DNA of 61,640 bases, the filler included, from Sanchytrium tribonematis (Eukaryota): the NCBI GenBank assembly GCA_018985235.1. It is 4 parts of 4 records of this genome, joined end to end, with 100 filler letters (N's around TTAATTAATTAA, not from the genome) between each part and the next. Parts side by side here need not be neighbours in the genome. Positions count along the whole stretch, not along the records: positions 46,403 to 61,640 come from JADGIG010000154.1; 3 more parts are not named here. One strand, 5' to 3'. The notes beneath the pieces are model-generated. The model did no database searches and was not told the DNA's origin. It saw nothing but the letters and a program-made list of their open reading frames with translations. Made by a program: the position numbers and the translations under genes. Shown piece after piece: positions 1 to 50,907 of this stretch. Numbering within the stretch: position 1 is the first letter of the stretch; each line of letters begins with the position of its first letter.

Positions 1-129
1 TGGAAACAGCATTAAAAGATTCTAAAACGACTGACTTGAAAGATGATAACCCAGTGGATGATCCAATTGAATAAATTACAATCATTTTGTGATTTTACAA
101 GTTGCGTGATTTTGTTTGATCCCTGTTAA

Positions 130-717
130 ATGTTGATGTTGATATTTGCCATTCTTTCACAGATCCAAAAAACACTCGTATTAGATCTAGACCATACCCT
201 CATTCACGCTATCCCATTCCAATTACCTCCAAATACTAAAATGAATCAAATGACACTCATTGACGATGTCATTATATACTTAGATACCAGTCCCGTTATC
301 CAGATCGATTCCAATTCATATCTATTATGCATAGATCATGAGTATTATAAAGTATATATTCGTCCATTTGCAAGAGAATTGATTGAAATCGCACATTCAA
401 ATCAATATGAAATCATCATTTATACTGCTGCATCACAATATTATGCAGATTTAATCATCCCACTTCTAGATACCCATAATCGAATCACTCTCAATTATTA
501 TAGACAAGATTGTCATGCTTTGTTTTATCAACATCAATTTCATTATTATAAGTACTTGACTGTATTAAATAGAGATATGGATCATTTAATCATGTTGGAT
601 GATAATCCACAATATGTGATGCCAAAAGAGAATGTAGTGGGAATTATTCCATATCAATATGATCAAGAAGATGATGAATTAGAGAAATTTGCAAAAATAT
701 TGGAAAACGTGGGATAA
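130..717 (+). CDS. FCP1/SCP-like (NIF) HAD phosphatase with N-terminal hydrophobic leader, copy 1
   Basis: KTLVLDLDHTLIH (DxDxT motif I), VYIRP, IYTAA (motif II), YYRQDC, K, IMLDDNP (motif IV); leader MLMLIFAILSQ. Confidence 0.9.
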   Translation: MLMLIFAILSQIQKTLVLDLDHTLIHAIPFQLPPNTKMNQMTLIDDVIIYLDTSPVIQIDSNSYLLCIDHEYYKVYIRPFARELIEIAHSNQYEIIIYTAASQYYADLIIPLLDTHNRITLNYYRQDCHALFYQHQFHYYKYLTVLNRDMDHLIMLDDNPQYVMPKENVVGIIPYQYDQEDDELEKFAKILENVG

Positions 718-733
718 ATTCAAGACTATTTAT

Positions 734-1420
734 TTAATCAGTTAATGGATTAAGATTAGGGAGGGTTTCGGCTATCGATTTACCACTTTTCAAGTTATTA
801 GCAATTATCTTAATTAGAGTTTCAACTCTGTTCAAAACATCGTCATTTTCTTCTTTTTCTGTCCAAATAAATGACTTGACTTTTATACTATTCTGCCCTT
901 CAACGAATGAATCTGGATTATCATCAATTAATAGCACATTATCGACATTATCATCCACTATTGATAAATCTTTTTGAAACTTTGGAATGTCAACATCTCC
1001 TATATTTGTACAAGATTCTCTGTAATATTTCACATCAAACAGATCCTTATTAGGATCAAACAGATCATTACTAGGATCAAGATATCGAATAATATCATCT
1101 GCATATTCTCGATTTGCTGCTGTAAAGATACCCACTTTGAATCCCAATTGTTTCGTAAATTGCAGCAATTCTCTGGCATATGGTCTAATTTCGACAATAA
1201 ACTCATTAATTGCAAACACATGAGAACTTCGTTCTTTTGCATTTTCATTAAGCTCATTCAACATCTCATCAGTTAATGCTGACCCACACACTTCAAATGA
1301 CACAGTGCGAATTAATGTAAAGTCTAAATCAAACATGATAGTTATTTGATTCAATGGGTTATTTACATTGACTGCATTGGATGTATACATTGCATAAATT
1401 GCAAGTAAAATGGACAACAT
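734..1420 (-). CDS. FCP1/SCP-like HAD phosphatase with hydrophobic leader, copy 2
   Basis: FDLDFTL, IRPY, IFTAANREYAD, YRESC, KDLS, LLIDDNP; leader MLSILLAIYAM. Confidence 0.9.
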   Translation of the reverse strand: MLSILLAIYAMYTSNAVNVNNPLNQITIMFDLDFTLIRTVSFEVCGSALTDEMLNELNENAKERSSHVFAINEFIVEIRPYARELLQFTKQLGFKVGIFTAANREYADDIIRYLDPSNDLFDPNKDLFDVKYYRESCTNIGDVDIPKFQKDLSIVDDNVDNVLLIDDNPDSFVEGQNSIKVKSFIWTEKEENDDVLNRVETLIKIIANNLKSGKSIAETLPNLNPLTD

Positions 1421-1640
1421 TTGTTTGAAGAGGAGAGGGCTCCTTTTGCAAGGTCTTCAAATCACATGCATTTGTGATTAATTTGATCCAATCATCAAAG
1501 AGATGGAGTCACACGCGTGTCACCATCAACATGACAGAATTCTATTCGTTCAATTTTGTTGGATGTGATTTGAATCACGTGCTGTATCATGAGATGATTT
1601 GTGGTGTCATTTTGTCATCATTTTGAATCCCTCAAAACAA

Positions 1641-2261
1641 ATGTTGTTTCTACTATATTTATTCAGTCTATTAATCAAACGCAATACTGATAAACACGTC
1701 GTCCATTCACTTGCATCCAATATTGAAAATGAATTCACTATTGTTTTAGATTTAGATGATACCCTCATATATGCAGAATCAATATCCAAATTACATTATT
1801 ACTCCCATATTCTACATAAATCAAAAGGAAATGCATTGCAAATTGATGATGAATATTATATTGTGCATATTCGACCATTTGCACTTGAATTTATTCAAAA
1901 TTTACATGCATTAAATTACGAATTGATTTTATTTACAGCTTCATTACAGCCATATGCAGATGCTGTTATGAAATTAATAGATCCAAATCAATTGGTAAAA
2001 AGACGATATTATAGATCAGATTGTACACCCGTGTATTTAAATGGTAAATTGAGTTGGCATCAAAAAGATTTGACGAAATTGAATCAAAATATAGATAATA
2101 TTTTACTCATTGATGATAATGACTATTCATTTCTTGAAACACAACAAAATAACAAATGTTTGATTCCCAAATATTCTGAATATTATTTGAATAATAAAGC
2201 AGATCATACCTTGTTGAAAATGTATGAAGAATTTCGATTTTTAACGAGTTTACATCAATAA
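1641..2261 (+). CDS. FCP1/SCP-like HAD phosphatase with hydrophobic leader, copy 3
   Basis: First ATG at 1641 (MLFLLYLFSLL); LDLDDTL, IRPF, LFTASLQPYAD, YRSDC, KDL, LLIDDN. Confidence 0.9.
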   Translation: MLFLLYLFSLLIKRNTDKHVVHSLASNIENEFTIVLDLDDTLIYAESISKLHYYSHILHKSKGNALQIDDEYYIVHIRPFALEFIQNLHALNYELILFTASLQPYADAVMKLIDPNQLVKRRYYRSDCTPVYLNGKLSWHQKDLTKLNQNIDNILLIDDNDYSFLETQQNNKCLIPKYSEYYLNNKADHTLLKMYEEFRFLTSLHQ

Positions 2262-2280
2262 ATAATGGATATTTGCAAAA

Positions 2281-2818
2281 ATGATGATGATTTTAATGAT
2301 ATTTGCATTATTTAGCAGTCGATATAAATCACCTATTGATAAAATGTCAAAGAAATACATCAAGACACTCGTATTAGATTTAGATTTGACTTTAATTAAT
2401 TGTCAATTCATTTCTGAAGAAGATTATGAAAAATACAAATATAAAAAAGTGGAAATCTCGTTAATCAGCCCAAAGGTTGATAATATACAATATTATCTCC
2501 GTGTATATATCCGGCCATATGCTATAGATCTCATTAAATCAGCACATGAATTAAACTATGAAATCATTATTTTTACAACTGCATTGGGGTTTGGGGAATA
2601 ATGTATTAATAATTGATGATGATGCATTTGTCATAAAATATCAACGAGAAAATGCTATTCAGGTTCAACAATATAATGGGGTTAATGATGATGAATTGAA
2701 GAATATCATTCCACATTTAATAAAATTAATGGAATATAAAAGGACAGTCCCAGAATATTTAAAATCAAACAATTTGATTGCATGTGATGATGCAGTCAGT
2801 GGATGTGCTATTTCATAA
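2281..2818 (+). pseudogene. FCP1/SCP-like phosphatase copy 4, internally deleted and frameshifted
   Basis: Frame 1 has LDLDLTL...YIRPY...IIIFTTA, then jumps at about 2590-2600 to NNVLIIDDD in another frame; the roughly 50 aa YAD..YR..C..KDL segment seen in sister copies is absent. Confidence 0.75.
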
Positions 2819-2951
2819 TAAATTGTTGCAAATGGTCTCACATGATCACCAAATGACACGTCAAATGATGTATCACGGGATACAATATGGTGTCATTTTG
2901 TACACAGTTGTGACGTCATTTGTTTGATCCCATTTCAATCCCTGTATTTTG

Positions 2952-4124
2952 ATGTTGCTGCTTTTAATTCATGTCATTTCATATTTGGCACCGACTCCTG
3001 CCACATTGCTGCCAGATTTAATTGATAAATCCAAAAAGACAATTGTCATTGAATTACTCGATACATTACTCTTCATCAAAAACTCTCCTATACCCAATCC
3101 AAATACTCATTTGGTTATTATATTTGAAAATAAGCCCATTTATGTCTATGTTCGCACTTATGCAATGCATCTAATTAAAACAGCATACAAATCAAATTAT
3201 GAAATAGTCATATTTACAAGACTCTCTAAAGTGAAAGCATTGCAACTCATGCAGAGATTAGAAATACAAAAACATGTTCATCATTTATTAGCACAAGAAT
3301 CTTTAACATCGTACAATAACTTCGATGGTAGTACCTCTCTGATCAAAGATTATTCCCGATTAAATAGAAATATGAAAAATGTCTTGATTTTAGATAATCA
3401 ACCCAATGCCCTTACAAATTATCCTGTAAATATGATTATAGTCCCTAGTTATACAATGATTAATAATACGGATAGTATATTAAATGATTATGCTAATGCT
3501 TTAAACAAAACTATTCCTTATATTGTAGAATTATTTCGTAAAATAGTCGTATTTGATTTAGATGATACCTTGTTTCACGCGCAACAAATTGAAGAACAGG
3601 ATTATAATCCAAATAATAGTCATCATATTAAAGACGGTGATTATTATGTCAATGTGCGCCCAGATGCCATTCATCTTATAGAAGCAGCATATGCATTAAA
3701 TTATAAAATAGTTGTATTTACTGCTGCTGAACAAACTTATGCAGATCAAATGATTGAATTAATTGATCCAAATCATAGAATACATCACAGATTATATAGA
3801 GACAGTTGTTACATTAATGAATCTGGCAATTTTATAAAAAACTTGTCAGAATTGAAGAAATTAGACATATTTGTTGATTCAATGTATAACAATGTCATTA
3901 TGTTTGATGATAATCCATGGACTTTATCAACAAATTCAAATAATGTCGTATTGGTGCCACCCTACTCAGTTAGCTTAATAGAAGGGAAAAAAGATAGAAT
4001 CTTACAAGTTTATATTCAGTTATTAAAAATGATAGTCTCTAGCAGAGAAAGTATTCCATCACTACTTAAACGATATAAAATAGTACCAAGAAGCAAGATC
4101 AATTCTAATCTACTTAGTAAATAA
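2952..4124 (+). CDS. Two-domain FCP1/SCP-like phosphatase, copy 5 (degenerate N-domain plus intact C-domain)
   Basis: Domain 1 IELLDTL...IFTRL...KDYS...ILDNQP; domain 2 FDLDDTL...VRPD...FTAAEQTYAD...YRDSC...MFDDNP; leader MLLLLIHVISYLA. Confidence 0.88.
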   Translation: MLLLLIHVISYLAPTPATLLPDLIDKSKKTIVIELLDTLLFIKNSPIPNPNTHLVIIFENKPIYVYVRTYAMHLIKTAYKSNYEIVIFTRLSKVKALQLMQRLEIQKHVHHLLAQESLTSYNNFDGSTSLIKDYSRLNRNMKNVLILDNQPNALTNYPVNMIIVPSYTMINNTDSILNDYANALNKTIPYIVELFRKIVVFDLDDTLFHAQQIEEQDYNPNNSHHIKDGDYYVNVRPDAIHLIEAAYALNYKIVVFTAAEQTYADQMIELIDPNHRIHHRLYRDSCYINESGNFIKNLSELKKLDIFVDSMYNNVIMFDDNPWTLSTNSNNVVLVPPYSVSLIEGKKDRILQVYIQLLKMIVSSRESIPSLLKRYKIVPRSKINSNLLSK

Positions 4125-4169
4125 TTGGGGCATCAAATGATCCATCACGCGTTTGATCCCTGTATTTTC

Positions 4170-4460
4170 ATGTTGATGATTTTATGGGATGGTACCAAAA
4201 ATGATCCAGATGAATATGTTAAAGATTTATTGCAATTAAATCGAGATTTGAGAAATGTGATTTTTTTAGATGATCATCCGTCTTCATTTCGATATCAACC
4301 CAATTATGCCATATTGGTGCCAAAATACTCGATAAATTTGAAGAATAATGTACGGGATACTATATTGGATCTATATAGCAAGTGGTTGACTGAAATAGCT
4401 GATAATCCCAAAGATATGGCAGATTTAATACTCGATTTCAAATTAAAGCATTATTTATAA
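4170..4460 (+). pseudogene. FCP1/SCP-like phosphatase copy 6, N-terminal catalytic half deleted
   Basis: Same upstream GTTTGATCCCTGT motif as copy 1 and an MLMIL start, fused directly to YVKDLLQLNRDLRNVIFLDDHP; no DxDxT motif. Confidence 0.75.
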
Positions 4461-4692
4461 TCAATCTACATAATAAATACGCTATCACGATGTCATTTAC
4501 ATGGCAATCACAATCATTTTAGTATCGACTCCTTTTATTTGTTGATTGGTTCTTTTAAATTGTGTATTCAATTGCCATGTGTGAGATGGTCGTACATGAT
4601 ATTACAAATGAATGTGATTTGTAGAGATTAATGATGTACTCTGATCATTGAATACAAATTAATTCGAGTGAGCTCCTATTCAAACAGAAAAA

Positions 4693-5424
4693 ATGTTGCT
4701 GATTTTGATGATGATGTTTGCAGTGCCAATGAAGGACGAACCTGATGATTCTGTTTTTACTGAAAAAAATGTGGCTCCTCCAAATGATGGCGACGAGTGG
4801 GGACCGTTGTCTGAAGAAGACCAAATTGTTCAATTAGGAAAGACAGTCATATTTGATTTGGATTATACACTAGTAAGGAGCAAAATTACTTTTGTTGAGG
4901 ACCGCAACAATGCAAATCGAATTTTTGTCATAAGATTAATTGATGGCAAATATACAAAGTTGTGGTATGATGTTCAAATAAGACCATACGCCATTGATTT
5001 ACTTAAAACTGTTAAAAATTTGGGATTCAATGTTGGTATTTTCACAGCATCTGAGCAGGATTATGCAGATGAAATCATTAAATTGTTGGATCCAGATAAT
5101 GATATTATTACGCAGAGATTGTACAGAGATAGCTGTATTCCTGTTTACAATGATGAAATCAGCACTAAAGTTGATTATTACATGAAAGATTTGACTAAAG
5201 TGAAGGGAGACTTGGATAATATGGTGTTGGTAGACGATGACGATCGTGTGGTGTTTAAAGGGCAAAACCATATACCAGTCAATTCATACTTTGGTGAAAA
5301 TGGCGACCATGAGTTGCGTCAGGTTGGAGTATTGCTCAATGAAATTGCCAGATCAAAAGAAGAATCGATTTCAGAAACCCTTGCAGAATTGTGGGCACGA
5401 CGCGAAAGATCAAACACCATTTAA
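4693..5424 (+). CDS. FCP1/SCP-like HAD phosphatase with hydrophobic leader, copy 7
   Basis: FDLDYTL, IRPY, IFTASEQDYAD, YRDSC, KDL, VLVDDD; leader MLLILMMMFA followed by an acidic linker. Confidence 0.9.
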   Translation: MLLILMMMFAVPMKDEPDDSVFTEKNVAPPNDGDEWGPLSEEDQIVQLGKTVIFDLDYTLVRSKITFVEDRNNANRIFVIRLIDGKYTKLWYDVQIRPYAIDLLKTVKNLGFNVGIFTASEQDYADEIIKLLDPDNDIITQRLYRDSCIPVYNDEISTKVDYYMKDLTKVKGDLDNMVLVDDDDRVVFKGQNHIPVNSYFGENGDHELRQVGVLLNEIARSKEESISETLAELWARRERSNTI

Positions 5425-5452
5425 TTTAATAAATCAATGAATGAAATCAATT

Positions 5453-6746
5453 TTATTTATGAAAACATCTATCAATTTGTTCATCTGTTTCACCATCCAT
5501 TATTTTCTTGACAGTCAATAAAGTACAAATACCCATACTCAATAATGCAAATATAATTAATCCGATATTAGATATCCTTCTCATATTACTATTATGACAT
5601 GCTTTTAAATGTAATAGAGGGGGGAAAATGAAACTAATTGGAATGCAAACAAATACGCCAGTTAAAGAGACAAATAAATCTAAAATACCACTAAAACACC
5701 ATGCAGCTAAACAGACGACTATAACGACACATATTCTAAAGACGGATCTTTGTAATTCGGTGGATTTGGATGTTTTGTGGCCTAAATGGGGATCAGGGAA
5801 TAATGGGGCTTCCATGATTTCCATAGCGGGAAATAATTGGAGTGGGACACTGACTGAGATGGCAAATACATAACCAATCTGTAATACTTGCAGGAAGATG
5901 CCATTTGGCATATTGAGGAGAATGATGGTTTCAGTTGATTTGCCAAATACTAGAGATGAAAAGGAGCCTACGACGCAGTACATGATGGTGAGAAATATGA
6001 TGGATATTTTCAGACATTTGCCGAATTTGGAAGGATCTGCCATTGCTTGACGAACCGGAACGACTAAATAAATAAAAATGACCTAAACCGATGCCTTCAA
6101 ATGCACTGATTGCAATACCGTAAAATAAGACCATACTAGAGATATTAGAAGACATTTTCCATTCTAAATCATGGTCGGATACGCCTTTAATGTCATTCCA
6201 AAGCACATAAATGATACTTAGAAAAATAGCCACATTTCCAACTAATGCGACATTTGCAAAGTTCTTCATCTGTCTAATGAGAACTAGAGGAATGTAAATG
6301 ACTAATTGAGCCATAATCAGCAGAAAGAAGTCATGTACTTGTGTTTTACATTGAGATAATGTAGAAATTAAATCTTTTAAATTACTGGCTACAAAGATAA
6401 TGTAGATCATTGCAAATGAGAATTGAGCAATGGCAATACTAAGGAGGACTATGCCTTTGAATTTGGGACCATATAAAGTGGCTGCAATGTCTTGATAACT
6501 GCCAGGAACCACTGATGCTGCTTCTGCTAATAATAAAAGACCCCATAAACTCACAGATGCTGAGAAGACTAGAAAGAATAGAGATGGGATTAATCCGGCT
6601 ACATAGAATGCCTTTGGAAGGAATATAATGCCAGTGCCTAGAAAGGATTTGATTAATAAAAACAGAGTTTTGTTAAAACTGGCTCCACCTTCTTCTGCTA
6701 TAAAACTACCATTAGTTAATCGTTTTTGCTTGGTGTCAATGATCAT
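5453..6746 (-). CDS. AAAP-family (AVT3/AVT4-like) amino acid transporter; 19-nt intron 6064-6082
   Basis: LIKSFLGTGIIFLPKAF; splicing gtcatttttatttatttag gives AFEGIGLVVPVRQAMADP and joins the two ORFs; PLQLFPA, FIFPPLLHLK. Confidence 0.9.
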
Positions 6747-7177
6747 TTTGTATTTTCAATTTGCCAATTGGATTTGGGAGATTTGAGATTATAAAATATT
6801 TGTCAGTCTCACATGATGTCGCAGATGTAACGTGACCCGCTTTGTACCCCATATTGGCCAATCACGTCATTGTATTTGCCATTGTGATCTGTTGGGGGTA
6901 TTATCCCTGTTATCTAGTGACGATTAATTTATTTTAGAGAATGTTGTGTGAAAATGGTCAAAATGAGTCACTTTAACTAACAAATTAGGAAAATGCACGC
7001 ACCAGTAATTCCATTAATCAATAGCAACAAATTCGATCCATTTCAATGAGGGTCATTCATTTGCCCATCTGACAAATATCGCCATCAGATGATTCACGTG
7101 TTCAAAAACAGCACATCCAAATTGCGCACCTATCTCATCATCCTTTTCTTTTTAAACTAGCTAGTCACACATTCTAA

Positions 7178-13986: not shown

Positions 13987-15391
13987 TTATTGTAAATGAA
14001 TCCAAATGATCCCAAATAGTGCCATCTTTATTACATTCCCACCACTCTTTGAATCATTAAATACATCTGCCTCACTCGGTACCACATTATTCAACAAACT
14101 ACTCTGCATAATTCTCTCAAATTCACTCTCAAATCCCTTTCTTTTATCCATTGTCACATTCATCTTATTAAACCAGTCATCCAAACTACCAGGATCCGTC
14201 ACAGTCGTATTCTCGCCTCCAACTGCCTTGTCATAAGTATAACATAATTTAGAATAATCTAGAATATCTGTAGCAGATACCCCTACATATTTCATTTCTC
14301 GAGTCATGTCCATGTACGCATCACTATATTTCGCATTGGGATGCTTAATATGGAATTCAATATGCATTTTTTCAACCCACGCATGATGTAACCAAAATAC
14401 AATATCTCTTGGACTCGATGGCCCACTCATATCTCCACCAATTCGAGCATGGGGCGTGGCATGTGGAAACAATTCAAAATCGAGCATGGGGCGTGGCATG
14501 TGGAAACAATTCAAAATTGGTACTAAATTGATGAAATGTATTGTAATTATCAATCATTTGGTACACCGTCTTCACATGCACAAATGGCGTACGTTCAAAT
14601 TGGCGTCGAATACATTGCCCATGAATGCGCACATTTGCAAATGGACCATCAATACACTGATTCATTCGATTCCCATCCCCACCAATCATTTCCCATACTT
14701 TAGATTGCCATGGATTCCCTGCTTCTCTATCATGAGACCAATACGGCACACAAATCGAGGGATCTATGGTTTGCAATGCTTGTTCAAATACACTCACAAA
14801 TGCACGATGCCATGGTAAAAAGTAATCAGTAAAATGGGCATAGGACCATACGCCAATATGCCATGTGACGAGACTATCCATCACGCCATTTTCTGCCAAT
14901 TTAATAAATGCATTTTTGAATTTGTTCCATTCTTCATCTGATAAATGATGGATTTCCTTACGCACACATTGATTTGTGCATTTAATATTGGCAATAGATG
15001 GTATATTCGAATTGGAATTGGAATTGGAATTAGTGGTACTAGAAGATTGAGACAATTGGGAAACTGCATTGTTATTTGCAATAAAATTGGACCATGGATT
15101 GGATTGACTATTGTTGCCATTGTCATTGGATTTGCCGGATGAATCACTCTTTTCATTGGATTGTTTGTTGGATTTATCAGTAGATTTATCATTGGATGAC
15201 TTGTCCGTAGATTTATCATTGGATTTGTCAGTAGATGATTTATCAGTAGATGACTTGTCGGATTTGTCTGCTGTAGTCTTTTCATTCTTATCTACTGTTT
15301 TGCCATCTCCATTGACTGCAATAGATGTGCCAGTATTAGGTGCATTCGTCATATCAGGGCCATTTAAAATAAAGACAGGTGATTTGCCTTT
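13987..15391 (-). CDS. Tyrosinase (type-3 copper protein), 5' truncated by the gap, interrupted by a 37-bp tandem duplication
   Basis: VRKEIHHLS, CuA WH...AH...FLPWHR, PYW, DGPF, CuB PHATPH...GGDM...SPRDIVFWLHHAWVEK; S/D/K-rich N-terminal linker; hydrophobic C-tail. Confidence 0.88.
14443..14516. repeat. Exact 2 x 37-bp tandem duplication
   Basis: tcgagcatggggcgtggcatgtggaaacaattcaaaa at 14443-14479 and 14480-14516. Confidence 0.95.
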
Positions 15392-30980: not shown

Positions 30981-31123
30981 CCCATTCCAACCATAATACC
31001 TTGGTGTCTTGGACGACCGACGATAGATGGGAAAACAGCTCTTGGTGCGTCATCACCAGCAAAACCGGCTTTACACATACCAGATCCGTTATCAATAACC
31101 AATGCAGAAACTTCTTGACTCAT
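30981..31123 (-). CDS. ACT: Actin paralogue A, 5' part only (runs into contig end)
   Basis: [47 protein letters not shown]; two synonymous differences from the 31781 copy (GGTTTT vs GGATTC). Confidence 0.93.
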
Positions 31124-31149
31124 TGCGCACGGACTTCGACGCGTCCACT

Positions 31150-31159
31150 TTTATACCCC
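31150..31159 (-). promoter_or_regulatory. TATA element of actin A
   Basis: GGGGTATAAA ending 27 nt before the ATG, same sequence and spacing as in actin B. Confidence 0.65.
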
Positions 31160-31744: not shown

Positions 31745-32928
<1,184 letters not shown>

Positions 32929-43749: not shown

Positions 43750-45247
43750 ATGAATCATGAAGAGTCACCGAGGCAAATATCCAAGAAAGACACAAAAGAT
43801 CAGCCGTTCACGGCGATTGACTTGTCGAATATGGGCTTGAAAGCTATTTCAAATAATCTATTTAAGTGGTACTCCTTTCTGTCAGTTATAAATTTAAGTA
43901 GCAATAATCTGAGATCAATTTCCTCCAGAATATCAGAGTTAAATAATTTAGTTTATTTGGATTTATCTGCCAACCAGTTGCAATCCGTTCCATGGGAAAT
44001 GGGATTATTGTCACAGCTTCAAACATTGTATTTACATGATAACTTTTTAACAACCCTGCCACATGAATTTGGAATGCTTTATCAACTTAACAAATTAACT
44101 CTCGATAATAATCCATTAGCAGATGTTATATTTCAAATTGAAAAGCAATCTTGTACTCATCTAATTCATTATCTGCGAGATAACGCGCCAAAATCCTCTC
44201 CACCACCCCCAAGATCTTGGGAACCAAAAAAGAAAGACGCAAACCATTTTACTATACTCAGTTACAATATATTGGCACAGAAATATGCCCGTCCAAAGTT
44301 GTATGGGTATACTCCCAACTGGGCGCTGGACTGGAATCACAGGAGCGCAAACATTATAGCAGAAGTAGAGAGCTATGATCCAGACATTATTTGTTTTCAG
44401 GAGATTGAAGAAGGTGACTATGAATCATTTTTTGGGCCCAGATTATTAACGCTTCCTGGAAGAATGTATAGGGGAATGTTTTTTCAAAAATCAAGAGCTA
44501 AAACTATGGGAGAGCTGGACAAAAAGTCAGTTGACGGTTGCGCGATATTTGCTAAAATAGACAAGTTTGAGTTTATTACAGAACATCTTTTAGAATTTAA
44601 TGAGCTAGCTTTAAAACAACACTATCTTGAAAAAACAGACAGTTTATTTACACGATTGATGCAAAGGGACAATATAGCTGTAGTTGCGCAACTAAGGCAC
44701 ATATCTTCAAAAGTGCCCGTTTGGGTTGTTAACTGTCATATTCATTGGGATCCAAATTATAACGATGTTAAAGTTTTGCAAACCGCGATAATGTTAGAGG
44801 AAGTGTCGAAATTGGTAGGGTCGCATCCACTTGTTATTTGTGGAGATTTTAATTCTACTCCAGAATCTGCTGTAATCAAGCTTATGACCGAGAAATTCAT
44901 ACCTGGTGATCACCCCGAATTGCTAGGAGTCGATTATGGATCTTCCTTACGAACACATGGATTAAAAAATAGATTACAGTCTTTGTCAAACGCGTATGAG
45001 CATCACGAACTTCCTTTCACAAATTATACCCCAGGATTTAAAGGAGTTATTGACTATATATTTTATTCTGATAGGCTTTTAGAAGTCACAGCAACACTGG
45101 GCGAGATTTCGCAAGATTATTATAATAATTATGTTGGTTTTCCAAACCCTCATTTGCCGTCGGAGTATAATTTACTAATTTAGTCATATATGCTTGATTT
45201 CAGAATTTAATATCAGTCCTACAACAATAAAACTTTACCAATCTTGA
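43750..45247 (+). CDS. CCR4: CCR4 deadenylase (LRR + EEP); 19-nt intron 45165-45183
   Basis: LRRs, SYNILA, FQE, CGDFNS, IDYIFY; removing gtataatttactaatttag restores the catalytic PSDH. Confidence 0.95.
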
Positions 45248-45304: not shown

Positions 45305-46302
45305 ATGGATTCATCTATGAATTTTAATTCTGTTGTACACTATCTGGCTTCAGAGTTTAAAAAATTCGAAAGAGAAAGGCTTGAATGGCAAATTGAAAAA
45401 AACACTTTGCTTAGTCGTATCGCAATTCTTGAAGGAGAAAAACGATCTATTGCACATTTAAATGCCGATATTTTAGAAAAACTGACATTGTCCGATTCAA
45501 AAATCGAAAGACCAGCAATAGATGTTGACAAGAAGAAAGACGACACTCGAAAATTATTACTTTCATTTATGCAGGAGGCTAAGCAGCTTTCATTATCTCC
45601 ATTAGATCCAGTGCCTGATAGATCAGAACCTGATGAATCATCTATACCAAAATCATATTACGATGTGGAGCAGCTTGAAGAGTTGTCTCAAATTAAAGTT
45701 GAGGACCTTCGTAAGGAAAAAAGGCTGTGGAGGTCGAGCATAAATTTCAGATCGCATTTTGACGCTGTCAGATCGGTTAAATTTATCGACCACTTCCACT
45801 TTATGTCTATTGGTGATGATGGTTGCGTCAAGATATGGAATTTGAAATGCGAAGATCCATATCGGTCATTTAGAACAGATACATCATTCTTATGTGGGGC
45901 AATTTTGAATAATATGGCAGTTTGCGGTGATTTGAAAGGAAGGTTGCACTTATTTAGAGTAGATATTTCCAAACCTATTGAAGACTACCCAAATTACGAT
46001 AAAACCTTCAGGCTTCACTACAGTGATGATCATTCGGACGCTATCTGGGAAATTGCTGCTTTTGAGAAAAAAAACAAGTGCGCTTCCATCAGTGCCGACG
46101 GAACTCTTAAAATATGGACCCTGGATCAAAATTTAATCACGCTTTCGCATTCCCTGACTTGTACTTTATGCTAACGTAGTTGATAATCAACACCCAACTT
46201 CTATCTGCTGTTCATACCAAAATGATGATCTTTTTTATGCTGGATTCGATACTGGTCAGATTTTGTCTCTGGACATTAATACTGGTAAAGTCGTTGATAC
46301 AA
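45305..46302 (+). CDS. Striatin/Far8 (STRIPAK) WD40 protein, 3' truncated; 19-nt intron 46161-46179
   Basis: VVHYLASEFKKFERERLEWQIEK..RIAILEGE striatin N-terminus; RSHFDAVR, HSDAIW; intron gtactttatgctaacgtag reopens the frame (DNQHPTSI...). Confidence 0.9.
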
Positions 46303-46402
46303 NNNNNNNNNNNNNNNNNNNNNNNNNNNNNNNNNNNNNNNNNNNNTTAATTAATTAANNNNNNNNNNNNNNNNNNNNNNNNNNNNNNNNNNNNNNNNNN
46401 NN
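46303..46402. other. Artificial contig spacer
   Basis: 44 N + TTAATTAATTAA + 44 N. Confidence 0.98.
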
Positions 46403-46572
46403 TCATTGAACGGAAACAGCAAATTAGCCAGTTGATTGGTAGAAATGGCGGACAAATGACGGATTATTAGCGTCTATTGGAACGGATTTGTCGGATAGAT
46501 TTTACGTGGTACTCCATTTTTCTTTATGTCAGTTTTTCTATTTTTCAATTGTATTATTTCAATAAACTGCAC
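46403..46572 (+). repeat. Direct repeat copy 1 (at least 170 bp; begins at the contig edge)
   Basis: tcattgaacggaaacagc...aataaactgcac, matches 49141-49310. Confidence 0.95.
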
Positions 46573-46753
46573 TATCCAAGGCTGTTCTTCTGGCAGCCAC
46601 CCAGCTTCAAAACTGTGATGAAATCAACACAATTGAAATCTCATCACAAAGACTTGCCTTGAAATGGAATTGATTCATCCATCAACTCATCAAGACAATG
46701 CCATTTTTGAAATAAATTAAAAGCATAGTAAAGAGACTCTTTTGAACTATAAC

Positions 46754-46792
46754 TCGGATAGATTTTACGTGGTACTCCATTTTTCTTTATGT
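46754..46792 (+). repeat. 39-bp partial third copy of the direct repeat
   Basis: tcggatagattttacgtggtactccatttttctttatgt. Confidence 0.9.
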
Positions 46793-46954
46793 AGAGATAA
46801 TAATGATAATCCGACAAAATTATCCGACCAATCATTTTTATAATCCCATGTTTTAAAAATTATTGGTATTTTATTGTTTAATTGTTTTAATTTATTTAAA
46901 TTAAAGAAACAATTGGTGGACTAGTTAATAAATAATTCATCTCTCCCAAATGGT

Positions 46955-47497
46955 ATGACTCTCTTTCTCGGAGTAGACCCTGGCCCCAAAAACTGTGGCA
47001 TTTGTCTCTTGAGACAAACAAGCAGACCATTGTTAGTTGAAAATGAATCTGGTTTCTTGGAAAAGAGTGTGAACAAATATGAGATTCTTTATAAAGATAC
47101 AATTTCTTTTCAAAAAGGAAAAGCTTTAAACATCCAGGATCTAGCTTGTTCAGTTTTTAAAATGTTCAAAAAATTGCCACAGGGGGCCTTGAAACTGGCC
47201 ATTGAAGTTCAGCCATGTTCGACAATAAGAGATAAATACACAGTTATTCTTAAATCTCATTTAATGAATATTATGGTAGAAACAGCATTTGTTTCATGTG
47301 CTGTAACTTATGGATATGAGGTTGTTCGAATAGTTCCCAAGAAATGGAGAGATTTTGTAGGTATTGGTGACAAAACAATTAAAAAGTATAAAGAAAACAA
47401 GGTATTGTCAAGCATTATTGGATACAACAACATCACAACAATTCATGAATATGATGCTGTTTCTATTGCATATTGTGCTTTTGAAACTTATGAGTAA
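46955..47497 (+). CDS. RuvC-like Holliday junction resolvase (poxvirus A22/Cce1-Ydc2-like)
   Basis: FLGVDPGPKNCGICLL (catalytic D), LAIEVQP (E), VPKKWR, HEYDAVSIA (D). Confidence 0.82.
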   Translation: MTLFLGVDPGPKNCGICLLRQTSRPLLVENESGFLEKSVNKYEILYKDTISFQKGKALNIQDLACSVFKMFKKLPQGALKLAIEVQPCSTIRDKYTVILKSHLMNIMVETAFVSCAVTYGYEVVRIVPKKWRDFVGIGDKTIKKYKENKVLSSIIGYNNITTIHEYDAVSIAYCAFETYE

Positions 47498-47508
47498 AAT
47501 GAATTTCT

Positions 47509-49047
47509 TTATTTTGGATAGTCTTTTCTTATTTTAGATCTCAGCTTTGTTATTGTTAAATGCCCCTGAAATGCAAGTTCAAAATCACCAATAGTTGTAA
47601 ATGTAGACATCACTTCTCCAATTCGGATTCGTTCTCTTACTATTTTCTTTAAATTCATATTACTAATATTTGCGATATCTAAATCACTAAAGAGTCTTAA
47701 TGGTTTGAGGTTTATTGTGCTGTCACCGTGATGTCATTGTTTCCATAGCACCTTTTAGTCTGCTCTTGGTAGTTTTATATTGGTACTAATCCCTATTGTA
47801 CTTTGTGTTGCTTTAATTACACATCCTTTTGCAATATTAGTTTGTGCTTTATCAATAAATTCGGGACTGGTTGAATTATTGAAATTTGAATGTGATTGTG
47901 ATTTCAAATGGCCTCTTTCTTCAAAACATTTGTCCAATAACTCAAATATTTGATCAATACTATAGTTGTTTACATCAATAGAAGGATTTAAACTTATTTG
48001 AGGCTTTAAAATATCCTCTGGTGCATCTTCCCTAACCAGTTTCAGATCAACTAAGTATCTTGATAAAGTCACGCTATTCTCCCATTTGACAAATCTTAAT
48101 AACTCACGCAGTGTTAACTTATTTTGAGCTTCAAACACCCTGTGGTATGCTGCACCACGTCTCCATGAGTGACAACTAAGCCTGTCTTTAAAGTGCATGT
48201 TGAATTGATGTGCTACAGATTTCAGTTTGTCCAGGAAATTGTTTTGGGACATGGCATGAGTTGGATCTATTAAAATAGAGCCTGATTGTTCAAATGATAC
48301 GCTGAAAAACAGTTTCGATTTACCCAATAAAATGCTAGATGACTCAATCACAGACTGCTCTAAATACTCCTTGTATATTCTAATAGGGTTTATAAACTCT
48401 TCTCCGGGCTGACAATAAAGCTTAAAATTATAGTTATAGCCACTCTTCTTTGCTTGGCTTTGTTTCATCCAAGGTATATGAACATATAGAAATGCTACAC
48501 TATTCTTGTCATAACATATTTTAATATCGTCAAATGTCATATCAAGCACATTTTGGATTCTAAAGCAACCCTGATAGAGAATTGCATTGATTAATTTTAA
48601 CTGTGCAAATAAAAACGAATGATTTGTTCCTTCTAATTTGGAAATCAATTGTTTTATATCGTTTAACTGTAATGGATAAGCTTGTTTGCTTATTTCCCCA
48701 CTTCTAGCACTTGATGTTTTGATTGCGCGCACCTTTTCTAAAATGCTGCAATGCCCAGCTGGATTGCCACCATTGTATTTGTTATTTGAATCTACTTGGC
48801 ATACTTTTCCTAGCTTATAAACCTCTTTATAATAGTTTAATAAACCTGCATGTACTGTTCCATAAGTACCGGCTGCATAGTTCTTTGTAGAAACCAAATG
48901 GTTGATAAATTGAACGATTATATCGGGTACATTTGAATTGGAAGGTCGAAAATCAATTTGGTTAGAGTTGCAGTATGTTACAAATGCGTTGATATATGTA
49001 CCATAACTAGTTAATGTTCTATATGATAGCAGTTGATGAGCCGCCAT
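47509..49047 (-). CDS. Tyrosine recombinase (Crypton-like); C-terminal domain 47509-47754 lies beyond two in-frame stops
   Basis: N-terminal SAM-like domain, GNPA, catalytic R (GCFRI), K (MKQSQ), HSWRRG, W, Y (SRYL); frame continues LPRAD*KVLWKQ*HHGD..LKPL..ER..F to TAA at 47509. Confidence 0.88.
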
Positions 49048-49140
49048 TTTGGTTTCAATGAAGGGATTAAAAAATAAATTAATTTATTGAAGTACTTAAA
49101 TCAGTTAAAATCCAATTAAAAAACTCATTTATCCGTCCAA

Positions 49141-49310
49141 TCATTGAACGGAAACAGCAAATTAGCCAGTTGATTGGTAGAAATGGCGGACAAATGACGG
49201 ATTATTAGCGTCTATTGGAACGGATTTGTCGGATAGATTTTACGTGGTACTCCATTTTTCTTTATGTCAGTTTTTCTATTTTTCAATTGTATTATTTCAA
49301 TAAACTGCAC
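49141..49310 (+). repeat. Direct repeat copy 2 (170 bp)
   Basis: Matches 46403-46572. Confidence 0.95.
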
Positions 49311-49739
49311 AATTTAATGCCAAATGATATTAAGACTTGACTGTAAAATAGCATTCCCTCTGAATGATCAAATAAACTATAATCAAAAGAATGAAAAGAG
49401 TATAAGTCACCTGGCAGTAATATATCGGATGCTTTTGATCTCTCACTATTTAAATTGATCTTTTTGAGTAAAAATTTGCGGGTTTTTCTTACGTGAATAG
49501 AATCAAGTGGATTGGATGACATTCGAAAATTTAGATTGATGGGAGGTGTTTCAAAAATGTCTAAAATTGTTGCGATATCGTGCTGTTCATATTCTTTTGG
49601 CCACTCAGCGACAAGAAAAGTATTGCAATGATCTGCTAATGCTGACCAAGTGTTGTACCAATGACTTTCACTGTAATAAACTGAATTTGAATTATTTGCA
49701 TCTGCAGGATGCATTATTGCAGTTTAACACAATTGAAAT

Positions 49740-50490
49740 CCAAACAAACAAGATTGTTGGCTAAACGAAAAAAGGTTGGTTCACTCAAGAATTATTTAGA
49801 GAAATACATAGAATTATTTAGAAAAATACAAAGATTATGTGTTTCCGTTTAGAAATGGAATGTTAGATTGGAATCAAGCAAGCGCTCATACTGAATCAGA
49901 AATCGAATCATACTTCCAGAATAAAAATATCGAAGTTATTAAAAATCCAGCAGGAACAACAGGTTATTGTCAACTTGCAGATGTTGGTTTGATTGAGAGT
50001 ATAAAGCAAGAATTCGAAAATCAATTTAAGACTTCTATGATGAACAAGTTGATGAATTTCAAGCAGACCCAAACAAGCCAAAAGTCTTCAAAAACCAGGA
50101 ATTGTAAAATTAAGAGACTGGATTGTCTGTGGATGGGCAAAAGTGACTCTTGAGATTATCGAAAAAACTTTAAAAACCTGTTATTTGACTGAAAATGTTG
50201 AGGAATTACATATGGCAAAAGTGACTGGCTTAGGTAGTTTTATATAGCTTAGGTTCACAATTAATTGCATCATTTGAGCGCTTTTCAGTTTGGTCTAATG
50301 TTGTGAATGCATTATTAAATGAAACAACATACTCAATGATTGCAGAAAAGTTCGAAATTGCATAATTTGCTGAAGATGAGGAAATTCCTGATGCAAATGT
50401 TCCTCGATTTGAAGCACAAAAAGAAATCATTGATTTAACTGGCGAAAATGAACAAATATATGAATTAAGTAATCATTTATTGACATTTTG
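49740..50490 (+). mobile_element. Decayed pogo/Tigger-type (DDE_1) transposase fragment
   Basis: KGWFTQELF, LDWNQASAH, PAGTTGYCQLADVG, WIVCGWAKV..IIEKT, acidic tail; multiple stops and frameshifts. Confidence 0.75.
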
Positions 50491-50499
50491 AAAATTGGA

Positions 50500-50545
50500 G
50501 GGGGGAGTTGAGTATACTGTCCTAATTACTCACTCAAGTCCCCCC
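50500..50545. repeat. GC-rich inverted repeat (14-bp arms, 1 mismatch, 18-nt loop)
   Basis: ggggggagttgagt (50500-50513) / actcaagtcccccc (50532-50545); gggggagttg recurs at 50546. Confidence 0.8.
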
Positions 50546-50907
50546 GGGGGAGTTGGCCTGTTAAAGACTTTAATTGAAAAATGCTTGTTATGGCCTAGGA
50601 TACCCAGCTCAAATGCAGCAATGACATTTTCGAAATAGACAAAGAGGATGTTGATTTGGGGCAAGTTGTTGCTCATTGTACTACGGCAGTTGCGGAATTT
50701 TTGTCTTTATAGAGAAACGATCACTAAATTTGACGTAAGCACCTGAATTCTTTTCGCATTTTTTATTTTTGTCTTTGGGCCTTATTATAATTTTGAATAT
50801 CATTTTAGAGGCAATCTCGATTTTGGCAAATTTTTAGATCAAATTTAAAATTCTTGGGCTCGATCGGCTGAGTCACTAGAAGGAGAAATTTGTGACAAAT
50901 AAATTAA

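What the first reader, a model, noticed from the sequence alone, without database searches (positions are those of the whole stretch)
46403..49310. Candidate new mobile element: tyrosine recombinase plus RuvC/A22-like resolvase within 170-bp direct repeats
Seen: a 2738-bp repeat-to-repeat unit containing two convergent, intronless genes whose ends are 11 nt apart when the recombinase is read to 47509. One is a tyrosine recombinase with R-K-HxxR-W-Y intact, the other a RuvC-fold nuclease with D/E/D acidic residues. Known: Cryptons encode a tyrosine recombinase alone, DIRS elements add RT/RNase H, and A22-like resolvases are typical of large DNA viruses; tyrosine recombination passes through a Holliday junction. 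I know of no described eukaryotic transposon with just this pair. Inference: a Crypton-like, plasmid-derived or virus-derived element that excises as a circle via the repeats and uses its own resolvase for replication or integration intermediates.
Basis: partly seen in the sequence, partly recalled or inferred. Interest (0 to 1): 0.9.

Follow-up and report, generated by a model that had tools for sequence, protein, structure and literature searches.

The report
Crypton-type transposon carrying a RuvC resolvase
This is a damaged copy of a small, repeated jumping gene of a fungus-like microbe that carries a DNA-recombining enzyme together with a predicted phage-type cutter of four-way DNA junctions, which likely helps it finish inserting at very short target sites, a pairing I could not find in print for such elements.

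Summary
The two-gene unit is real; the 170-bp repeats are not its ends. A public run holding this DNA (X1, probably the source sample) shows a ~2.45-kb element bounded by a 3-nt TGT core, three left and at least three right contexts, a head-to-tail junction, and about three times flanking depth. The window copy is dead: its 512-codon Cre-like recombinase has two stops that the run's majority contig lacks. The 180-aa partner is RuvC-like (D8-E84-H164-D167), closest to phage resolvases, not Ydc2/Cce1 or Fanzor. The 169-nt repeat is element end plus flank of a local duplicate cut by the contig edge. Recombinase relatives occur in Aphanomyces and Sanchytrium but lack the CryptonF and CryptonS signatures. 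Likely mechanism (inferred): circle excision and integration at TTTATGT, with the resolvase finishing junctions stalled on a 3-bp homology. I could not test the pairing in other genomes; this scan noted it earlier on other DNA (Rozella, RuvC; also RusA and GEN1 pairings), unchecked. New variant of a known kind.

The parts
46404..46499 (.). Right-terminal 96 nt of a second copy of the element, cut by the contig start
   Evidence: identical to 49142-49237; linker ends at 46402
46500..46789 (.). Flank between the two copies: target DNA, itself part of another repeat, with a rearrangement point near 46697
   Evidence: four contigs of run X1 leave it with other sequence at 46666 and 46697; no long open frame
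46754..46792 (+). 39-nt target stretch duplicated at both ends of this copy (also 46491-46529 and 49229-49267); starts with a 9-mer equal to the element's subterminal 9-mer and ends in the TGT core
46790..46792 (+). Left crossover core TGT, preceded by TTTA in both known insertion sites
   Evidence: joint to 46790 and loose end before 46786
46793..46954 (.). Left subterminal region with short motifs repeated inverted (10 and 8 nt) and direct (9 nt) in the right end; likely recombinase binding sites (inferred)
46955..47497 (+). RuvC-like Holliday-junction resolvase gene, 180 aa, D8-E84-H164-D167, open in the window and no stop among the 5 differences of the run's contig
   Evidence: PHROG 1770 E 5e-4 over residues 1-175; TIGR00228 E 0.004 (68); Atlas 0.94 (28); BFVD top hit (88)
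47509..49047 (-). Tyrosine recombinase gene, 512 codons, Cre-like fold with a conserved C-terminal domain; broken in this copy by stops at codons 431 and 438
   Evidence: other letters in run X1
49048..49237 (.). Right subterminal region with repeated CGGA motifs; other copies go on with 7 more element bases and TGT
49238..49310 (.). Right flank: 27 target bases in place of the 7 terminal element bases, TGT (49265-49267), then 43 target bases; this is the non-element part of the 169-nt repeat
49311..50550 (+). Decayed, high-copy pogo/Tc1-type DDE transposase fragment, not part of the element
   Evidence: Pfam DDE_1 E 1.4e-5; many variant contigs, depth up to 929; stops in all frames

Best explanation
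This is a broken copy of a low-copy, ~2.45-kb Crypton-type DNA transposon that carries a tyrosine recombinase gene and a predicted RuvC-type resolvase gene, and it likely moves as a circle whose insertion the resolvase would help finish. Shown: the two genes, the ends at a TGT core, several sequence contexts, a head-to-tail junction, and the same TTTATGT at both known left junctions. Inferred: the recombinase binds the short subterminal motifs, joins the ends into a 2455-bp circle, and pairs the circle's core (ending TTGT-TGT) with a chromosomal TTTATGT. Only the last 3 bases match, so one pair of strands can be exchanged but the second exchange would be blocked, leaving a Holliday junction. 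The resolvase would cut the other two strands and host ligation or repair would complete the insertion. The window's locus is one such insertion whose right junction formed off-register through a 9-nt microhomology (27 target bases duplicated, 7 element bases lost), was later duplicated locally as a 2738-bp block, and decayed.
For: Ends and contexts: joint 49237 to 46790 with 7 other letters, depth 74.6; another right flank after 49235 that has the same 7 letters and TGT; another left flank before 46786. TTTA precedes TGT in 2 of 2 insertion sites, against 22 of 2244 TGT in the window. Depth 237-350 on the element, 70-132 on unique flanks (rough). Contigs 46791-47362, 47364-48846 and 48817-49235 tile both genes, the middle one holding the resolvase 3' end and most of the recombinase. 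Crypton model and short cores: PMC3212892, PMC9977147. Resolvase tetrad matches T. thermophilus RuvC D7-E70-H143-D146 (PMC3592405). Precedent for recombinase-made junctions finished by another process: CTX phage, by replication (10.1101/2021.09.09.459576). In the canonical copy both junctions change over exactly at TGT, with the mismatched bases never crossing, as a single exchange point predicts.
Against: No experiment and no second genome: six locus scans returned nothing, so co-occurrence and selection on the resolvase are untested. Most described Cryptons have no resolvase and similar short cores. The resolvase call rests on weak hits below curated cut-offs and a poor model (pLDDT 47, best Z 5.5 to generic RNase H folds); tblastn finds no phage relative. 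Only two insertion sites are known, each from 30-letter loose ends, and pairing the other left flank with the other right flank is assumed. The head-to-tail junction is near single-copy depth, far above the 36 to 6959 reads reported for Starship circles, so it may be a chromosomal dimer or an amplified circle. Run X1 may be the window's source and is not independent.
Confidence: 0.5

Rival explanations
1. Same element, but the resolvase serves replication of the free circle: it would cut branched or concatemeric copies into monomers, as poxvirus A22 does, and the recombinase does both strand exchanges alone.
For: Head-to-tail junction at near single-copy depth fits dimers or an abundant circle. 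Active Cryptons gain copies despite clean excision (PMC9977147). A22 resolves concatemers, and phaeovirus elements carry both a tyrosine recombinase and A22 (PMC13236599).
Against: No replication protein or origin is evident in 2.45 kb; a tandem insertion into the element's own end explains the junction equally.
Confidence: 0.2
2. The RuvC-like gene is captured cargo with no role in moving the element, or acts otherwise (for example nicking occupied or empty sites).
For: Cryptons carry varied second genes: C48 peptidase, DDE transposase, HTH, Fanzor. No relative of this protein was found among 26 candidates. Depth is lower on the resolvase end (237) than on the recombinase (341-350), so one copy may lack it.
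Against: The catalytic tetrad is intact and the frame is open in both versions seen; a junction cutter fits the recombinase's intermediate; unverified earlier notes report three unrelated resolvase folds beside Crypton-type recombinases.
Confidence: 0.2
3. One reading: a 2738-bp element bounded by 169-bp direct repeats that excises through them.
For: The repeats are identical and the pieces between them are adjacent in the run's contig graph at depth 84-104; homologous pop-out of the block is possible.
Against: Other copies share only 46790-49237 and have other flanks; the joined form lacks the 290-nt spacer; the left repeat begins at the contig edge, so its true length is unknown.
Confidence: 0.05
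4. Artefact or host gene: an amplification or assembly chimera, or the mitochondrial Cce1/Ydc2 resolvase next to a Crypton.
For: Contig-edge position; the overlaps that support the local duplicate are 30 letters, one under the tool's bridging limit; the library type is not on record.
Against: One 1483-nt contig of depth 341 holds both genes; no Ydc2 or Pox_A22 Pfam hit at E up to 1; the protein starts at its first strand and all three upstream frames are closed, leaving no room for a targeting peptide unless an unseen exon exists; three left contexts.
Confidence: 0.05

Closest known systems
Cryptons, especially CryptonS of oomycetes and diatom (Kojima and Jurka 2011, PMC3212892; read parts 1-2 of 7, Additional file 1, parts 2 and 4 of Additional file 4)
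   Same: DNA transposon of 2.5-3 kb with one tyrosine recombinase, no long terminal repeats, short terminal core (TATGT here, TATGG in most CryptonS), conserved C-terminal region without a GCR1_C hit, low copy number; relatives in oomycetes (Aphanomyces).
   Different: Second gene is a RuvC-like resolvase rather than a C48 peptidase; the recombinase has CFRI-x-E/N and W-x-K motifs, not the FGRASD and R-x-KT of the listed CryptonS (compared by eye); perfect core only 3 nt; host is fungus-like.
CryptonF, including the active CryptonF-1_cRei of Chlamydomonas (PMC9977147, passages)
   Same: Donor motif at one terminus recombines with a near-identical target; excision and copy gain.
   Different: No Pfam GCR1_C hit in 14 proteins scanned; recombinase motifs differ by eye; no resolvase described.
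Fanzor-carrying Cryptons (PMC13565253, passages)
   Same: A Crypton that carries a RuvC-fold nuclease.
   Different: Fanzor is an RNA-guided TnpB homologue with a split RuvC domain and zinc finger; this protein is a 180-aa unsplit RuvC with no TnpB-type Pfam hit.
Bacterial and phage RuvC resolvases (T. thermophilus RuvC, PMC3592405; PHROG 1770)
   Same: Length, first-strand D, central E, C-terminal H-x-x-D.
   Different: Sits in a eukaryotic transposon; under 20% identity to any structure hit; activity untested.
Phaeovirus endogenous elements (PMC13236599, passages) and Starships (10.64898/2026.09.21.753150, passages)
   Same: Tyrosine-recombinase integration through a circle; phaeoviruses also encode a Holliday-junction resolvase (A22).
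   Different: Far larger, with virion, replication or cargo genes; this element has two genes only.

Membership tests
Crypton (broad sense: eukaryotic DNA transposon with a tyrosine recombinase) | Tyrosine recombinase with catalytic R-H-R-Y | tested here: met
   R163, K195, H293, R296, W322, Y331 invariant in 9 of 9; Cre best match by profile and fold, E 3.4e-10
Crypton (broad sense) | No reverse transcriptase/RNase H, no long terminal repeats or TIRs | tested here: met
   two ORFs only between the ends; only 8-11 nt subterminal matches
Crypton (broad sense) | Short direct repeat at both termini shared with the target | tested here: met
   TGT at left and right junctions and once in the joined form; 3 nt, shorter than the 4-6 described; two sites only
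Crypton (broad sense) | Interspersed copies | tested here: met
   three left and at least three right contexts, depth about 3 times flank; empty site not seen
Crypton (broad sense) | Free circular intermediate | tested here: inconclusive
   head-to-tail joint present but circle and tandem dimer cannot be told apart in contigs
CryptonS | Recombinase falls in the CryptonS clade | tested here: inconclusive
   reference sequences could only be compared by eye: shares HS-x-RRG, lacks FGRASD; no tree with references
CryptonS | TATGG termini (majority) | tested here: not met
   TATGT target side, TTGT element side
CryptonF | C-terminal GCR1_C domain | tested here: inconclusive
   no Pfam hit at E up to 0.5 in 14 proteins, though the W-x-x-W-x-x-G pattern resembles it by eye
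DIRS/Ngaro retrotransposons | Reverse transcriptase, RNase H and split or inverted terminal repeats | tested here: not met
   absent between the ends
RuvC Holliday-junction resolvases | RNase H fold with D-E-(H/D)-D tetrad | tested here: met
   D8, E84, H164, D167; PHROG 1770 over 1-175; Atlas 0.94 with 198-201 of 256 features; all sequence hits are below curated cut-offs
RuvC Holliday-junction resolvases | Dimer that cuts four-way junctions | not testable with these tools
   needs an assay
Cce1/Ydc2 mitochondrial resolvase | Single-copy nuclear gene with N-terminal targeting extension (features recalled) | tested here: not met
   multi-context unit; no extension, upstream frames closed; no Ydc2 Pfam hit
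Poxvirus/NCLDV A22 | Pox_A22 family match | tested here: inconclusive
   no Pfam hit; in BFVD phage resolvases lead, a Feldmannia virus protein ranks 3 and a Tetraselmis virus resolvase 36, on a poor model
Fanzor/TnpB | Split RuvC domain, zinc finger, several hundred residues | tested here: not met
   180 aa, contiguous tetrad, no such Pfam hit

The most novel reading that the evidence does not exclude
A two-enzyme mode of eukaryotic transposition: the tyrosine recombinase makes only the first strand exchange on a 3-bp core and an element-encoded Holliday-junction resolvase, taken from a phage-type gene, completes it; Crypton-type elements have recruited resolvases of three unrelated folds (RuvC, RusA, GEN1) for this, and this recombinase clade of early fungi and oomycetes is an unnamed Crypton lineage.
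Probability: 0.35. Interest if true: 0.85.

Novelty: new variant of a known kind. Interest (0 to 1): 0.62.

Why it matters
Crypton transposition has not been shown experimentally (PMC13565253), and how a tyrosine recombinase integrates at targets with only a few matching bases is open. This element supplies defined ends, a joined form, a target motif and a candidate second enzyme in 2.45 kb, so the question can be tested in vitro with two small proteins. If the resolvase is required, it is a transposition chemistry not described for eukaryotes and a route to relaxed-target integrases; it would also be a phage-type RuvC living in a nuclear transposon.

Tried and rejected
No whole genome is held, so copies were counted only from one run's contigs. 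No RNA holder listed. Resolvase relatives: 1 of 26 candidates, itself; 7 chance-level phage hits, E 1-9; none in plasmids, viral contigs (56) or PDB sequences beyond an N-terminal RuvC match at E 2. Single-sequence model too poor to name a family. Recombinase loci: none confirmed in viral contigs, JGI metagenomes (59, 62) or prokaryote genomes; none in phages; 7 weak generic integrase hits in plasmids; the profile search added nothing. These scans use short exact patterns and missed proteins known to be in JGI data, so the blanks say little. The Atlas search for the recombinase did not complete. An intron or an alternative genetic code as cause of the two stops was dropped once the run showed sense codons there. 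The tree is the quick version, 31 rows of 280 aa or more out of 54 proteins held, no reference Cryptons, midpoint root. A gag-like look of the spacer is by eye only. No complex prediction was run: the resolvase has no alignment. Sequence look-ups in earlier findings were blank.

Full report
Setting. The window is four contigs joined by N linkers; the fourth starts at about 46403. The host is a compact, AT-rich eukaryote with ordinary genes around (CCR4, striatin, CK2, COPA, actin; names partly from recall) and very short candidate introns. I call it fungus-like by inference.

Observation. 46404-46572 equals 49142-49310 at 169 of 169 bases, 2738 apart. A 39-nt part occurs a third time at 46754-46792. 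A 180-aa ORF (46955-47497, +) and a recombinase frame (49047-47509, -) converge with 11 nt between the stops. The recombinase frame has stops at codons 431 and 438. The part beyond them is real protein: it scores 18.4 bits against a profile of ten relatives' C-termini, best of 500 shuffles 4.1, and five relatives align across it. To the right lies a decayed, high-copy pogo-type DDE fragment.

What the sequencing run shows. One public run holds the stretch (70% of words); it may be the window's source, so it is not independent, but it shows the other copies. Depth is 237-350 on the element and 70-132 on unique flanks (depth is only a rough guide). The majority contigs differ from the window at 11 coding places, 10 of them changing the protein, and have sense codons at both stops: the window copy is a decayed one. 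Contigs break at 46791 and 49235. A joint runs from 49237 back to 46790 with seven other letters between, depth 74.6; another contig leaves at 49235 with nearly the same letters, TGT and a new flank; another enters before 46786 from a new flank. So the element runs from a TGT at 46790 to about 49237 plus seven bases, 2455 bp as a joined unit; both insertion sites read TTTATGT on the left (22 of 2244 TGT in the window have this context). I count three left contexts and four right ones (two of them the window's). One 1483-nt contig holds the resolvase 3' end and most of the recombinase, so the genes travel together.

The 169-nt repeat. It is 96 nt of element end plus 73 nt of flank. In this locus the right junction is off-register: the element's subterminal 9-mer is joined to an identical 9-mer in the target 27 bases before the core, which duplicates 39 bases and drops the seven terminal ones. 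Both copies at the locus share this odd junction, so they descend from one insertion by a later local duplication (inferred), with a breakpoint near 46697 where other copies of the flanking repeat go elsewhere. The pieces of the duplicate are adjacent in the run's graph at depth 84-104, but only by 30-letter overlaps, one under the tool's bridging limit; tandem, circle or allele cannot be separated without long reads.

The recombinase. Pfam Phage_int_SAM_4 and Phage_integrase; Cre is the best solved match by profile and fold (model pLDDT 71). 39 of 1.84 billion representatives match at E 0.001. Of 30 looked up, the named ones are Aphanomyces (five clusters) and Sanchytrium (two); the rest are unnamed or generically named. 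In a quick tree the protein groups with two unnamed ENA proteins (99) inside a 23-row clade (100) with the Sanchytrium and Aphanomyces proteins. No GCR1_C hit in 14 proteins. By eye against the published alignment it shares HS-x-RRG with CryptonS but not FGRASD, and its first motif is nearer DIRS/PAT and Cre. I file it as Crypton in the broad sense (PMC13465315, passages), in no named group.

The nuclease. PHROG 1770, Holliday junction resolvase, E 5e-4 over residues 1-175; TIGR00228 ruvC E 0.004; Pfam RuvC E 0.054, no Ydc2 or Pox_A22 (9); Atlas 0.94 to phage RuvC clusters; a phage crossover-junction endonuclease tops BFVD, E 3.9e-4, on a poor model. D8-E84-H164-D167 matches D7-E70-H143-D146 of T. 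thermophilus RuvC (PMC3592405, passages). All hits are weak singly but agree. There is no N-terminal extension. No close relative was found.

Mechanism. Cryptons are proposed to excise as circles and integrate by recombining a terminal motif with a near-identical target (PMC3212892; PMC9977147); this is untested (PMC13565253). Here donor and target cores match over three bases only. Tyrosine recombinases exchange strands in two steps through a Holliday junction and normally need matching across a 6-8 bp overlap (established knowledge). With three matching bases the second step would stall; CTX phage leaves such junctions to replication. An element-encoded resolvase could cut them instead. The canonical junctions changing over exactly at TGT, and one junction made through microhomology, fit a second step not done by the recombinase, but this rests on two sites. 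I give this 0.5, resolution of replicating multimers 0.2, cargo 0.2, the 2738-bp unit 0.05, artefact or host gene 0.05. That it is a two-gene Crypton-type element at all I put near 0.9.

What is known. Second genes listed for Cryptons are a DDE transposase, C48 peptidase and HTH protein and Fanzor. Full-text searches for Crypton with Holliday junction resolvase, RuvC, resolvase or RusA gave no paper describing this pairing; I read passages of the hits PMC13236599, PMC5718144, PMC13565253, PMC13465315, PMC11162782 and the Starship preprint and saw PMC10711439 and PMC10530073 only as listings. Subscription journals and Repbase were not searched, and bioRxiv supplements were closed. Earlier notes of this scan report a recombinase plus RuvC-type gene in Rozella allomycis, and RusA or GEN1 partners in other eukaryotes; I could not check them, and six locus scans of my own returned nothing.

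Verdict. Observation partly confirmed, interpretation partly supported; new variant of a known kind; interest 0.62.

Noticed in passing
window 45165-45183 (+), 46161-46179 (+), 51978 (-), 40945 (-): Candidate spliceosomal introns of only 19 nt (GT...CTAA..AG); removing the first two restores the CCR4 PSDH end and the striatin frame. The count by pattern alone (4 against 2.5 in shuffles) is not significant; the frame repair is the evidence.
   Followed up: partly
window 130-5424: Tandem family of at least six NIF/FCP-like HAD phosphatase genes (DLDxT motif, family name recalled), most with hydrophobic N-termini that look like signal peptides; a secreted expansion typical of intracellular parasites.
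   Followed up: no
window 30981-31159 and 31745-31923: Contig 3 starts with an inverted, 95% identical copy of the start of the actin gene: two head-to-head actin paralogues or an amplification chimera.
   Followed up: partly
window 49311-50550: Decayed pogo/Tc1-type transposase fragment, 5'-truncated at the junction, with many variant copies in run X1.
   Followed up: partly
window 46573-46697: Fragment of another repeat that continues differently in four contigs of the run; by eye retrotransposon gag-like, untested.
   Followed up: partly
proteins P0004-P0041: A tyrosine-recombinase family shared by Sanchytrium, Aphanomyces and many unnamed metagenome proteins that matches neither CryptonF nor CryptonS motifs by eye; fungus-oomycete sharing may reflect horizontal transfer.
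   Followed up: partly
window 14440-14513 and 13987-15352: Tyrosinase-like gene with a 37-nt tandem duplication that breaks the frame near a contig end.
   Followed up: no
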